Source of the DNA: Thermoanaerobaculia bacterium
GTDB taxonomy: Bacteria > Acidobacteriota > Thermoanaerobaculia > Thermoanaerobaculales > Sulfomarinibacteraceae
Assembly (NCBI GenBank): GCA_027067575.1
Contig: JAMOVQ010000012.1
Span: forward strand, 1-63,990
DNA: 63,990 nucleotides
Direction: 5' to 3'
The translations under genes and the position numbers were made by a program. Shown here in pieces: positions 55,828-57,249 of the stretch (position 1 is the stretch's first letter; each line of letters begins with the position of its first letter). A model generated the notes under the pieces. That model saw only the letters and a program-made list of their open reading frames with translations, was not told the origin of the DNA and did not search any database.

Positions 55828-55913
55828 GCCGGAGTGGCGGAATGGCAGACGCAGGGGACTCAAAATCCCCCGAGGGTCACCTCGTGCGGGTTCGACTCCC
55901 GCCTCCGGCACCA
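55828..55913 (+). tRNA. tRNA-Leu(CAA)
   Basis: GCCGGAG/CTCCGGC acceptor stem, TGGCAGAC D-loop, GGGGA-CTCAAAA-TCCCC anticodon arm, long variable arm, GGTTCGACTCC, encoded CCA. Confidence 0.95.
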
Positions 55914-55920
55914 CATCCGC

Positions 55921-56316
55921 TCAATCCACGGCCTCCCCGCGGATCCTCGCGGCCGTCTCCACGAGGCGGGCTTGCGCCTCCCGGTCCACCGGCGGAAGCG
56001 GGAAGTCCGCAAGGCTGTTCGTCGGCAGAAGGTGGACGTGAACGTGGGGCACCTCGTACCCGACCACCATGGTCACCACCCGGGCGCAGCCCGTCCGTTC
56101 CTTGAGGAGCGCGGCCACCGTCCGCGCTGCATCCCACAGCCGGTGGTAGGCCTCTTCCGGCATGGAGAACAGCTCCTCGTGGGGGTGCTTGGGGATCACG
56201 AGCGTGTGCCCCTCGACCCTCGGGTTGATATCGAGGAAGGCCAGGTGCTCCCCGTCCTCCCAGATCCTGTGACACGGGATCTCGCCCGCCACGATCCGTT
56301 CGAAGATCGTCGCCAT
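55921..56316 (-). CDS. HIT family nucleotide-binding protein
   Basis: TIFERIV.GEIP, FLDINP..EGHTLVIPK, VPHVHVHL triad. Confidence 0.92.
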   Translation of the reverse strand: MATIFERIVAGEIPCHRIWEDGEHLAFLDINPRVEGHTLVIPKHPHEELFSMPEEAYHRLWDAARTVAALLKERTGCARVVTMVVGYEVPHVHVHLLPTNSLADFPLPPVDREAQARLVETAARIRGEAVD

Positions 56317-56354: not shown

Positions 56355-56397
56355 TTGACGGAACAACGGGGCACGGCTATATTCCTCGATGATTATA
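56355..56397 (+). promoter_or_regulatory. Sigma70 promoter with overlapping inverted-repeat operator
   Basis: TTGACG(56355)-N17-TATATT(56378); TATATTC-N6-GATTATA imperfect palindrome at 56378-56397. Confidence 0.75.
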
Positions 56398-56410
56398 AAG
56401 GAGGGTGCCG

Positions 56411-56776
56411 GTGCGAGCCCTTCCGTCCGACGAAGTCCTCGAGAAGATCGCCGATGTCTTGAAGGCGCTCGCCGATCCGACACGTCTCCGGATCCTCCAC
56501 GTGCTGCAGGACGGGGAGCTGTGTGTCAGCGACATCCTGGGCCATGTGGGGGGAAGCCAGGCCAACGTCTCGAAGCACCTGTCCGTGCTCAAACGCGCCG
56601 GGCTCGTCGGATGCCACCGGGAGGGGCTGAACGTGTTCTACCACATCTCGGACGACGGCGTCTTCGCCATCTGCCGCAACGTCTGCGACTCCCTGCAGAT
56701 CCGCCTCGACCGTGAACGTGAGACGCTGGCGGAGGCGAGAAGCCGCATGGACACGGGAACCGGGTCCCCGGACTGA
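56411..56776 (+). CDS. ArsR/SmtB-family transcriptional repressor, Cys-containing
   Basis: AAGGAGG SD then GTG 56411; LKALADPTRLRIL, ELCVSD, SQANVSKHL, C-terminal ICRNVC. Confidence 0.92.
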   Translation: MRALPSDEVLEKIADVLKALADPTRLRILHVLQDGELCVSDILGHVGGSQANVSKHLSVLKRAGLVGCHREGLNVFYHISDDGVFAICRNVCDSLQIRLDRERETLAEARSRMDTGTGSPD

Positions 56777-56801
56777 CGGCGAACCCATCGGAGTGAACCT
56801 G

Positions 56802-57005
56802 ATGAACGACCACCGAGGAACGACGACGACTCCGGCCATCCCCACGGGCACCTGCCCGGACTGCCGGGGCGAGGTGCTGCCGGTCCCGACTTGAGGAGCC
56901 ATTCTCTGGCGGTGCCGGAGCTGCAAGAACGTGTTCTACACAGGCCAGGTCTTTCCGGACGGCGTGCCGCTCGATGTGTGGCAGCGGCTCCCGTTCGGCT
57001 GCTGA
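56802..57005 (+). CDS. Candidate selenoprotein: 67-aa zinc-ribbon protein CPDC-x9-U-x6-CRSC (Sec at codon 31, TGA 56892-56894)
   Basis: GGAG SD then ATG; the two CxxC knuckles lie on either side of the TGA in one frame; SECIS-like hairpin follows. Confidence 0.7.
56904..56920 (+). promoter_or_regulatory. Putative bacterial SECIS element 1
   Basis: CTCTGGC-GGT-GCCGGAG, 7-bp stem (one G-U pair); loop begins 16 nt after the TGA. Confidence 0.65.
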
Positions 57006-57014
57006 GGAGGAACC

Positions 57015-57224
57015 ATGCCGATCTACGAGTACCGCTGTCTCGAATGCGGCGCCGTCTTCTCGAAGCTGCAGCGGGTTGGCGCGACCAGCGAGGGCGTGCG
57101 GTGCCCGAAGTGCGGCTCCGAGAAAGTGGAGCGCATGCTGTCCACCTTTGCCTCGGGCTCCTCGAGCGGAACCGGAACCTCAACCGGTGCGGCGTCGTGC
57201 ACGGGGTTCACCTGAGGCGTCTGA
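57015..57224 (+). CDS. FmdB-family zinc-ribbon protein, candidate selenoprotein (...SCTGFT-U-GV*); ends at 57215 if the TGA is a stop
   Basis: GAGGAGG SD; MPIYEYRCLECG..F..CPKCGS..VERMLSTFA; TGA 57213 followed by GGC GTC TGA and a SECIS-like hairpin. Confidence 0.85.
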
Positions 57225-57228
57225 CCCG

Positions 57229-57249
57229 ATGCCGCCAGGCTGGCGGCAT
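57229..57249 (+). promoter_or_regulatory. Putative bacterial SECIS element 2 (alternative: U-less terminator between convergent genes)
   Basis: ATGCCGCCA-GGC-TGGCGGCAT perfect 9-bp stem; loop 22 nt after TGA 57213; no U-tract on either strand. Confidence 0.55.

What the first reader, a model, noticed from the sequence alone, without database searches (positions are those of the whole stretch)
56802..57005. ORF1: zinc ribbon split by TGA (CPDC...PVPT-U-GAILW-RCRSC), missed by the ORF track
Reading through TGA 56892-56894 gives MNDHRGTTTTPAIPTGTCPDCRGEVLPVPT-U-GAILWRCRSCKNVFYTGQVFPDGVPLDVWQRLPFGC. The two CxxC knuckles needed for a zinc ribbon lie on opposite sides of the TGA, so termination there would leave half a fold. 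The hairpin CTCTGGC-GGT-GCCGGAG (56904-56920) overlaps the L-W-R-C-R-S codons. Sec would sit in the hairpin loop between the metal ligands rather than in a CxxU motif, an unusual position.
Basis: partly seen in the sequence, partly recalled or inferred. Interest (0 to 1): 0.82.

Follow-up and report, generated by a model that had tools for sequence, protein, structure and literature searches.

The report
Tiny zinc-ribbon selenoprotein gene, ArsR operon
The in-frame TGA is almost certainly a selenocysteine codon in a real 67-residue zinc-ribbon protein; the protein is an unannotated, Sec-only sister branch of a selenoprotein family known since 2007, and it sits in a conserved operon whose neighbouring small genes also appear to encode selenocysteine.

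Summary
ORF 56802-57005 carries an in-frame TGA at 56892-56894, between two CxxC knuckles. A hairpin, CTCTGGC-GGT-GCCGGAG, follows at 56904-56920.

The gene is real. All 28 orthologues in species genomes of one order, and all 33 found in metagenomes with a probe that did not include the TGA, keep TGA at this column. Third-codon-position variation continues in one frame on both sides of the TGA. Codons over the hairpin never vary, even at synonymous sites. The genome has SelA, SelB, SelD and tRNA-Sec.

No Cys form was found among 1.84 billion representative proteins. The only two sense-codon variants (Arg, Ser) have both lost the GG of the hairpin loop.

The Sec position is not new. The spacing CxxC-x9-U-x6-CxxC is that of NCBIfam NF041197 (OS_HP3, "hypothetical protein DW"), with hhalign probability 95%. 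The family scores 22-27 bits against a cut-off of 40 and has a different C-terminal half, so it is a sister subfamily.

The gene always lies between an ArsR regulator gene and an FmdB zinc-ribbon gene. That FmdB gene ends GF[TS]-TGA-(1-2 codons)-stop plus a covarying hairpin. Function is inferred: an exposed selenol on a zinc-ribbon hairpin tip that handles a soft metal(loid) or a reactive sulfur/selenium species.

The parts
56355..56383 (+). Sigma-70-like promoter (TTGACG-17-TATATT) upstream of the ArsR gene; probable operon promoter
   Evidence: 10 of 12 consensus matches; shuffles give a mean of 0.0 such sites. This is a consensus match only.
56405..56776 (+). ArsR/SmtB-family metalloregulator gene, first gene of the cassette
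   Evidence: Pfam HTH_5, E 5e-16. NCBIfam NF033788, 96 bits. Found upstream of the selenoprotein gene in every genome locus with enough upstream DNA (27 of 28, plus the second copy in G022, L047) and in metagenome contigs L048 and L050.
56790..56793 (+). GGAG ribosome-binding site, 8 nt before the ATG of the selenoprotein gene
   Evidence: Read directly from the sequence.
56802..57005 (+). Selenoprotein gene: 67 aa, a zinc ribbon with Sec31
   Evidence: It is conserved as one frame across the TGA.
56853..56864 (+). First CxxC knuckle (C18, C21)
   Evidence: Invariant in alignment A2.
56892..56894 (+). Sec codon UGA (U31)
   Evidence: TGA in 28 of 28 genome orthologues and 33 of 33 metagenome members found with a probe that lacked the TGA.
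56904..56920 (+). SECIS-like hairpin: stem CUCUGGC/GCCGGAG, loop GGU. The loop starts 19 nt after the U of UGA.
   Evidence: Codons CTC TGG CGG TGC are invariant, synonymous sites included, in 28 of 28 loci. 96.8% of cells are paired, and every 3'-arm change is A<->G opposite U. The loop GG is lost only in the two sense-codon variants.
56913..56924 (+). Second CxxC knuckle (C38, C41), encoded within the 3' arm of the hairpin
   Evidence: Invariant in A2.
57000..57002 (+). Invariant C-terminal Cys67, a candidate partner of Sec31
   Evidence: Invariant column in A2. OS_HP3 also ends ...RCDRL/I.
57015..57224 (+). FmdB-family zinc-ribbon gene. It probably ends ...CTGFT-U-G-V-stop (first TGA 57213-57215, second TGA 57222-57224).
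   Evidence: Zn_ribbon_8, E 7e-17. TIGR02605, 61 bits. All 30 FmdB genes read in the genome-derived and exact-look-up loci and all 30 complete ones in metagenome loci end GF[TS] (RFT in three) - TGA - 1 or 2 codons - TGA/TAG/TAA.
57229..57249 (+). Hairpin ATGCCGCCA-GGC-TGGCGGCAT after the FmdB gene: a candidate second SECIS or a T-less terminator
   Evidence: In 25 orthologues all 6 consensus pairs show compensatory changes. No T tract is present.

Best explanation
ORF 56802-57005 is a functional gene for a 67-residue cytoplasmic selenoprotein. Shown by comparison: UGA 56892-56894 is conserved as a coding position. The frame is under protein-level selection on both sides of it. The hairpin that starts 12 nt after it (7-bp stem, GGU loop, loop 19 nt from the U of UGA) is held constant at the RNA level. 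The genome has the complete Sec machinery. Inferred from established knowledge of bacterial Sec decoding: SelB-GTP-Sec-tRNASec binds the GG-containing apical loop and delivers Sec to the ribosome stalled at UGA. Inferred for the protein: C18, C21, C38 and C41 form a zinc-ribbon metal site. Sec31 sits in the T-U-G turn at the tip of the beta-hairpin between the knuckles. The invariant C-terminal Cys67 can pair with it as a selenylsulfide or as a two-ligand soft-metal site. The protein is a divergent sister subfamily of NCBIfam NF041197 (OS_HP3 / 'hypothetical protein DW'). It shares that family's CxxC-x9-U-x6-CxxC ribbon but not its C-terminal half, and no Cys form is known. It is expressed from one ArsR-controlled unit together with an FmdB zinc-ribbon protein, which itself most likely ends in Sec-x-x-stop. 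In the sister taxonomic family the unit also holds a membrane peptide ending VPT-U. Most likely role (inference, about 30-35%): a stress-induced selenolate/thiolate carrier or reductant for a thiophilic metal(loid) or a reactive sulfur/selenium species, de-repressed when ArsR senses that species.
For: TGA is invariant in 28 of 28 orthologues from two taxonomic families at 44-58% identity. It is also invariant in 33 of 33 metagenome members retrieved with a probe that did not contain the TGA. Codon-position entropy is 0.73/0.76/1.20 upstream and 0.84/0.57/1.30 downstream of the hairpin region. Invariant residues such as P, T and G use 3-4 synonymous codons. Codons +4 to +7 (CTC TGG CGG TGC) show no synonymous variation in 28 loci, whereas the other Cys and Leu codons of the gene vary. 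The hairpin is in the MFE fold of 27 of 28 sequences and 96.8% of cells pair. The two sense variants, AGA (L049) and AGC (L050), both changed CGG to CGT/CGC and so lost the loop GG, against 0 of 28 TGA-bearing loci. SelA scores 403 bits, SelB 317 bits, SelD 363 bits, and a tRNA-Sec(TCA) is present. TGA is an ordinary stop elsewhere: ArsR and this ORF itself end in TGA. NF041197 is the top NCBIfam hit for all five family members scanned (the window protein and four relatives; E 1e-4 to 3e-6, model positions 1-32 to 1-34), and U falls on the same model column 14 as in OS_HP3. hhalign of the family against OS_HP3/DW gives probability 94.9%, E 4e-8, with the Cys and Sec columns in register. The AF2 model has pLDDT 80, with strands 24-30 and 33-38 flanking U31-G32. 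The best Foldseek hits are zinc ribbons: ZifS, YfgJ, Rpb9. The ArsR - ORF - FmdB order is conserved.
Confidence: 0.85

Rival explanations
1. The ORF is a pseudogene or the TGA is a sequencing error: an ordinary zinc-ribbon gene was knocked out by a nonsense mutation.
For: The gene is absent from protein databases. A single sequence cannot exclude this.
Against: The same TGA is present in 61 of 61 independent homologues. Purifying selection continues downstream of it.
Confidence: 0.01
2. UGA is a genuine stop. A 30-residue peptide is made, the hairpin is a regulatory or attenuator structure, and the downstream conserved sequence is translated separately or not at all.
For: The hairpin is GC-rich and lies in a tightly packed operon. 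When selenium is scarce, termination at UGA will occur to some extent.
Against: No conserved start codon or RBS follows the TGA; codon +13 is GTG only in the window and in L008 and L010, ATC in most others. The downstream 36 codons keep the same frame with third-position variation and invariant P, G, P, W and C residues. The second CxxC knuckle needed for the ribbon lies after the TGA.
Confidence: 0.03
3. UGA is read through with a standard amino acid (Trp, Cys or Arg, by near-cognate decoding or a suppressor) and not with Sec.
For: One database entry translates the codon as W (P0008). Arg and Ser variants exist.
Against: P0008 is a table-4 gene call on a TGA codon ('with_TGA=W'). TGA is the usual stop in this genome. 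The full Sec machinery is present. The hairpin has the spacing and the GG loop expected of a SelB site, and that GG is lost exactly where the TGA is lost. The homologous ribbon of OS_HP3/DW is an accepted Sec site.
Confidence: 0.05
4. The protein is real, but its main role is regulatory. The chained Sec codons make translation of downstream cistrons depend on selenium supply, and the peptides themselves matter little.
For: The RBS of the FmdB gene lies within the last codons of the selenoprotein gene. In the sister family the read-through tail of the membrane peptide ends in an ATGA/GTGA overlap with the start of this gene in 34 of 49 loci.
Against: Protein sequences are strongly conserved: 14 invariant columns including 5 Cys plus Sec. 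That is not expected of a mere leader peptide.
Confidence: 0.06

Closest known systems
NCBIfam NF041197 'dual CXXC motif small (seleno)protein' = OS_HP3 (Zhang & Gladyshev 2007, PMC1976440; Olavius delta-symbionts, Desulfosarcina)
   Same: A small (about 60 aa) protein with CxxC-x9-U-x6-CxxC. Sec falls on the same model column (14) and is preceded by Thr (KRT-U against VPT-U). A Cys lies near the C-terminus (RCDRL). The SECIS lies in the coding sequence just after the UGA.
   Different: Scores 22-27 bits against a cut-off of 40. Only model positions 1-33 align. The C-terminal half (FPxG[IV]P..W..LW..C) is unrelated. No Cys forms were found. It has an obligatory ArsR/FmdB neighbourhood, and it occurs in a different phylum (no NF041197 hit at E 1e-4 or better in 401 genomes of this phylum).
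'Hypothetical protein DW' (deep-Sep, Xiao & Zhang 2025, PMC12013277), with paralogues in this order (G015:C27, G017:C94, G019:C107)
   Same: The same ribbon spacing (CIFC-x9-U-x6-CRSC), including the CRSC second knuckle.
   Different: It has the motif GR-U rather than PT-U-G, a helical C-terminus (YRDQIE.W), and reported Cys homologues. It scores 32-44 bits on NF041197.
Zinc-ribbon proteins YfgJ (PDB 2jne/2jrp), ZifS TTHA0897 (8yoz) and the Rpb9/TFIIS-type ribbons
   Same: A three-stranded ribbon with two CxxC knuckles. In YfgJ a Cys aligns with U31 (CPDCRQPLQVLKACGAVDYFC). In TFIIS-type ribbons the hairpin tip is the functional finger (established knowledge).
Multi-selenoprotein operons: Tso (with the ArsR-type regulator TsoR) and SAO (Haft & Gwadz 2023; Haft & Tolstoy 2025, as summarised in PMC13188914)
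   Same: Several selenoprotein genes sit in one operon with an ArsR/SmtB regulator. The window's ArsR scores 59.8 bits on the TsoR model.
   Different: The TsoR cut-off of 115 is not met. None of TsoA/B/C/X/Y or the Sao models hits these proteins. The proteins here are all tiny (about 30-75 aa).
UXX-star selenoproteins, and FmdB-family selenoproteins with Sec in the CxxC (GOS, PMC2398784)
   Same: The neighbouring FmdB gene ends Sec-x-x-stop, as UXX-star proteins do. The FmdB family is already listed as containing selenoproteins.
   Different: The published FmdB Sec sites are in the knuckle (CxxU/UxxU), not the C-terminal tail. No UXX-star NCBIfam model matches.

Membership tests
Bacterial selenoprotein gene (general criteria) | In-frame UGA conserved among orthologues, with coding conservation on both sides | tested here: met
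   28 of 28 and 33 of 33 carry TGA. Third-codon-position entropy exceeds that of positions 1 and 2 on both sides.
Bacterial selenoprotein gene (general criteria) | Stem-loop just downstream of UGA, apical loop 16-37 nt away, with G in the loop (bSECIS model as described in PMC13188914 and PMC1976440) | tested here: met
   7-8 bp stem and GGU loop, with 16 nt between the UGA and the loop. Invariant at synonymous sites. bSECISearch itself could not be run.
Bacterial selenoprotein gene (general criteria) | SelA, SelB, SelD and tRNA-Sec in the genome | tested here: met
   SelA is present in 59 of 61 genomes searched (the window's genome and 58 of its 60 relatives).
Bacterial selenoprotein gene (general criteria) | Cys-containing homologues aligned at the Sec column | tested here: not met
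   None within the subfamily among 1.84e9 representative proteins or 5.8e9 clusters. Cys forms are reported only for the distant DW relatives (PMC12013277).
Bacterial selenoprotein gene (general criteria) | Selenium incorporation shown (75Se or mass spectrometry) | not testable with these tools
   An experiment is needed.
NCBIfam NF041197 dual CXXC motif small (seleno)protein | HMM score at or above the curated cut-off (40 bits) | tested here: not met
   22.6 bits for the window protein and 22-27 bits for relatives. OS_HP3 scores 69.3 and DW 43.8.
NCBIfam NF041197 dual CXXC motif small (seleno)protein | CxxC-x9-U-x6-CxxC layout with Sec at model column 14 | tested here: met
   (hhalign 94.9%).
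NCBIfam NF041197 dual CXXC motif small (seleno)protein | Homologous C-terminal half (model positions 34-53) | tested here: not met
   Alignments stop at model position 32-34.
Zinc ribbon fold | Two CxxC knuckles flanking a beta-hairpin, plus a third strand | tested here: met
   Invariant C18, C21, C38 and C41. AF2 strands at 24-30, 33-38 and 44-46.
Zinc ribbon fold | Significant structural match to solved ribbons | tested here: inconclusive
Zinc ribbon fold | Zn bound by the four Cys | not testable with these tools
   Needs ICP-MS or EXAFS on purified protein.
Tso three-selenoprotein operon | TsoR, TsoA, TsoB and TsoC models matched above their cut-offs | tested here: not met
   TsoR scores 59.8 against 115. 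No TsoA/B/C/X/Y hit.

The most novel reading that the evidence does not exclude
The cassette would be an undescribed operon made only of tiny selenoproteins under an ArsR sensor. Its parts are a membrane peptide ending VPT-U (sister family only), the PVPT-U-G zinc ribbon, and an FmdB ribbon ending GF[TS]-U-x-x-stop. All are Sec-obligate with no Cys forms. The cistrons are translationally chained, so each depends on Sec decoding in the one before. In this reading the operon works as a selenium-gated selenolate relay for a thiophilic metal(loid) or a reactive sulfur/selenium species.
Probability: 0.2. Interest if true: 0.8.

Novelty: new variant of a known kind. Interest (0 to 1): 0.55.

Why it matters
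Gene callers cannot see this gene. In 1.84 billion representative proteins only three members appear: one mistranslated with TGA=W and two rare sense mutants. [quoted passage not shown] It extends the OS_HP3/NF041197 ribbon to another phylum; an earlier AI note gives Acidobacteriota, which I did not check. It also gives that orphan family its first conserved genomic context, an ArsR sensor plus an FmdB ribbon, and that context suggests concrete experiments. If the neighbouring genes are selenoproteins too, one short operon would yield two or three of them, and selenoproteome counts for this order and for many wetland, soil and sediment metagenomes are underestimates. NCBIfam has no model that would annotate these genes.

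Tried and rejected
- Folding the single sequence gave no signal (z +0.85). A 7-bp hairpin cannot beat shuffles at about 68% GC.
- The Rfam search with the E-value threshold found nothing relevant.
- A word-indexed protein search with the window protein alone found nothing. The same search with the NF041197-like paralogue also found nothing.
- The one genome-contig scan was largely wasted. The tool back-translated the Sec column as Cys, and the only confirmed hit (L032) is a chance match inside a 1977-aa Bacteroidota surface protein. It does show that no P[VL]PT-C-GxLLW Cys form exists in those 185,579 species genomes.
- A phylum-wide scan with the family profile found clear members only in the window's own order. 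A phylum-wide scan with NF041197 found nothing.
- SelA co-occurrence does not discriminate, because 59 of the 61 genomes searched have SelA.
- The covariation test on the ORF1 hairpin is uninformative, because the core never varies.
- A literature search for ZifS returned only unrelated material.
- Haft & Tolstoy 2025 (PMC12013261) is not held, so I could not check whether this operon is mentioned there.
- Considered and rejected: global TGA reassignment (TGA ends ArsR and this ORF itself); pseudogene; two separate ORFs.

Full report
**Observation.** The ATG at 56802 lies 8 nt after GGAG and opens a frame that runs to TGA at 57003-57005. The frame has one internal TGA at 56892-56894. Reading through it gives a 67-residue protein with CPDC (codons 18-21) before the TGA and CRSC (codons 38-41) after it. 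The hairpin CTCTGGC-GGT-GCCGGAG lies at 56904-56920. The ORF list under table 11 shows only a 60-aa fragment that ends at the TGA. On this one sequence the fold is not distinguishable from chance (z = +0.85), so the case rests on comparison.

**Conservation.** A six-frame search of 60 related species genomes found 28 orthologues in 27 genomes, spread over two taxonomic families of one order, at 44-58% protein identity. Every one has exactly one in-frame TGA. In the DNA alignment the TGA is an invariant column.

Codon-position entropy shows the pattern expected of coding sequence on both sides of the TGA, in the same frame. Upstream the values are 0.73/0.76/1.20. Downstream of the hairpin region they are 0.84/0.57/1.30. 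Invariant residues (P-4, P-2, T-1, G+1, P+21, G+23, P+25) use three or four synonymous codons.

Codons +4 to +7 are different. They are CTC TGG CGG TGC in 28 of 28 loci with no synonymous change, while the other Cys and Leu codons of the same gene vary freely. This is the signature of a constraint at the RNA level.

**The hairpin.** The invariant block forms a 7-bp stem (8 bp in most loci) with a GGU loop that starts 19 nt after the U of UGA. It appears in the minimum-energy fold of 27 of 28 sequences. On the 3' arm the only changes are A<->G opposite U, and 96.8% of cells pair. One locus (L008) shows a G-C to C-G swap at the stem base. Because the core never varies, covariation statistics are uninformative, and Rfam holds no matching model. 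I state this plainly: the structure is supported by synonymous-site invariance, not by covariation.

**An unbiased test of the codon.** I scanned metagenome contigs with the hairpin core alone, without the TGA. Of 80 loci fetched, 33 encode family members, and all 33 have TGA at the Sec column. Two of them have one extra codon between the TGA and LLWRC.

An exhaustive profile search of 1.84 billion representative proteins found only three members called as ORFs.
- P0008 is a table-4 gene call on a TGA codon.
- P0009 has AGA (Arg).
- P0010 has AGC (Ser).

No Cys form exists. A scan for the back-translated Cys version in 185,579 species genomes found only one chance hit. In both sense variants the Arg codon that supplies the loop has changed from CGG to CGT or CGC, so the GG is lost. 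It is CGG in all 28 unselected TGA loci; 2 of 2 against 0 of 28 gives Fisher p of about 0.002. Close relatives of P0009 (L071, L105) carry TGA, so its AGA is a recent change.

**Decoding machinery.** The genome encodes SelA (403 bits), SelB (317 bits, above the cut-off), SelD (363 bits) and a tRNA-Sec(TCA). TGA is an ordinary stop here: ArsR and this ORF itself end in TGA. A pseudogene, a sequencing error, a global reassignment and two separate ORFs are therefore all excluded or very unlikely. Sec insertion through an in-frame SECIS is the explanation that fits every observation.

**Comparison with known families.** NCBIfam NF041197, 'dual CXXC motif small (seleno)protein', is the top hit for all five family members scanned, the window protein and four relatives (22-27 bits, E 1e-4 to 3e-6). 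The score is below the curated cut-off of 40, and only model positions 1-33 align.

The 2026 review of prokaryotic selenoproteomes lists two families under this model: OS_HP3 (Olavius symbionts, 2007) and 'hypothetical protein DW' (2025). Their sequences are in the deep-Sep supplement:
- ...CPVCRRPLVMKRT-U-TRVTLACRVCG...RCDRL
- ...CIFCGKVAEIRGR-U-SNARVVCRSCG...

Both are CxxC-x9-U-x6-CxxC, the spacing found here, and OS_HP3 maps Sec to the same model column 14. A profile-profile comparison gives 94.9% probability (E 4e-8), with all Cys and Sec columns in register.

What differs here:
- the C-terminal half (FPxG[IV]P..W..LW..C);
- the absence of Cys forms;
- the phylum (no NF041197 hit in 401 genomes of this phylum);
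- the genomic context.

I therefore file it as a sister subfamily, not as a member.

**Context.** The gene order ArsR regulator, this gene, FmdB zinc-ribbon gene is conserved in every locus with enough flanking DNA. It is also seen in metagenome contigs. A sigma-70-like promoter precedes ArsR, and no terminator lies inside the unit. The RBS of the FmdB gene sits at, or inside, the end of this gene.

Two further observations go beyond the finding I was given.
- All 30 FmdB genes read in the genome-derived and exact-look-up loci, and all 30 complete ones in metagenome loci, end GF[TS] (RFT in three) - TGA - two codons (one codon in three loci) - TGA/TAG/TAA. A hairpin with a G-rich loop follows, and all six of its consensus pairs show compensatory changes. 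This is the layout of a Sec-x-x-stop selenoprotein. No NCBIfam UXX-star model matches it.
- In the sister taxonomic family and most metagenome loci, though not in the window, a fourth gene lies between ArsR and this gene. It encodes a roughly 30-residue membrane peptide ending LP[RK]LGVPT-TGA, followed by a covarying hairpin. Its open tail contains a Cys in 45 of 49 loci and ends in an ATGA/GTGA overlap with this gene's start in 34 of 49. [quoted passage not shown]

**Mechanism and its limits.** Shown by comparison: a conserved coding UGA, an RNA-level constraint on the adjacent hairpin tied to the presence of the UGA, complete Sec machinery, homology of the ribbon to an accepted selenoprotein family, and a fixed operon context. 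Inferred from established knowledge: SelB binds the GG loop, and the four Cys bind Zn. Inferred from context only: the role. My best guess (about one in three) is a selenolate/thiolate carrier or reductant for a thiophilic metal(loid) or a reactive sulfur/selenium species, induced when the Cys-bearing ArsR releases the promoter. Nothing here tests that.

**Provenance.** The window DNA is held by a hydrothermal-vent metagenome run. An earlier AI note suggests Acidobacteriota; I did not check this.

**Verdict.** Novelty: a new variant of a known kind. Interest is moderate (0.55). It is raised by the Sec-only status, by the gene's invisibility to annotation, and by the apparently undescribed operon of two or three tiny selenoproteins. 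It is limited because the ribbon itself has been known since 2007 and the function remains unknown.

Noticed in passing
window 57015-57249: The FmdB-family gene probably does not end at TGA 57213-57215. It most likely reads ...CTGFT-U-G-V and stops at 57222-57224. All 30 FmdB genes read in the genome-derived and exact-look-up loci, and 30 of 30 complete metagenome orthologues, have TGA, then 1-2 codons, then a second stop of varying identity, followed by a hairpin with a G-rich loop and compensatory stem changes. The alternative reading of the hairpin is a T-less terminator.
   Followed up: partly
L006-L029 (sister family), e.g. L016 about 170 nt upstream of the ribbon's TGA; absent from the window (56777-56801): A fourth tiny gene lies between ArsR and the ribbon gene. 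It encodes a membrane peptide...LLQWVVLP[RK]LGVPT-TGA, followed by a covarying hairpin. Its open tail has one Cys in 45 of 49 loci and usually ends in an ATGA/GTGA overlap with the ribbon gene's start. [quoted passage not shown] No NCBIfam model hits it.
   Followed up: partly
L042 (G015:C27), L043 (G017:C94), L044 (G019:C107): Relatives in the window's taxonomic family carry a second NF041197-like selenoprotein, CPLCG-x8-GR-U-x6-CRSC (32-36 bits, just under the cut-off). It is closer to 'hypothetical protein DW' than the window's protein is.
   Followed up: partly
L049 (217-420) and L050 (1095-1298): These are the only sense-codon members found: AGA (Arg) and AGC (Ser) at the Sec column. Both have the loop codon CGG changed to CGT or CGC. 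L050 also lacks the FmdB gene and lies next to a YgaP-like TM protein gene and a second ArsR gene.
   Followed up: partly
L048 (JGI 3300004481, gene 891-1094): A public gene call translates the Sec-TGA as Trp (table 4). This is the only way an intact, TGA-bearing member of this family entered the protein databases; the two others on record are the Arg and Ser sense mutants.
   Followed up: yes
G022:C36 (L005) and G022:C28 (L047): One relative genome holds two copies of the ArsR-ribbon-FmdB cassette.
   Followed up: no
window 56405-56776: The ArsR orthologues keep a Cys in V.C[RH]R[ED]G and a CxxxC in the last helix. The Cys of ELCVSD is lost in one genus (EMRVSD). This suggests thiol-based sensing. 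The best specific NCBIfam models (Rv2640c family, TsoR, CmtR, BigR) all score below their cut-offs.
   Followed up: partly
L006 and L125, tail after the membrane peptide's TGA: In two loci the read-through tail carries five Cys. In L006, the one read, it contains CEECGG...CPHCG, as if a further small ribbon were fused there.
   Followed up: no
window 55828-55913: A tRNA-Leu(CAA) gene lies between the ECF sigma gene and the HIT-family gene (55921-56316, minus strand), just upstream of the cassette. HIT and DUF4388 genes flank the cassette in several loci of the window's own taxonomic family (L004, L008, L027), not in the sister family.
   Followed up: no
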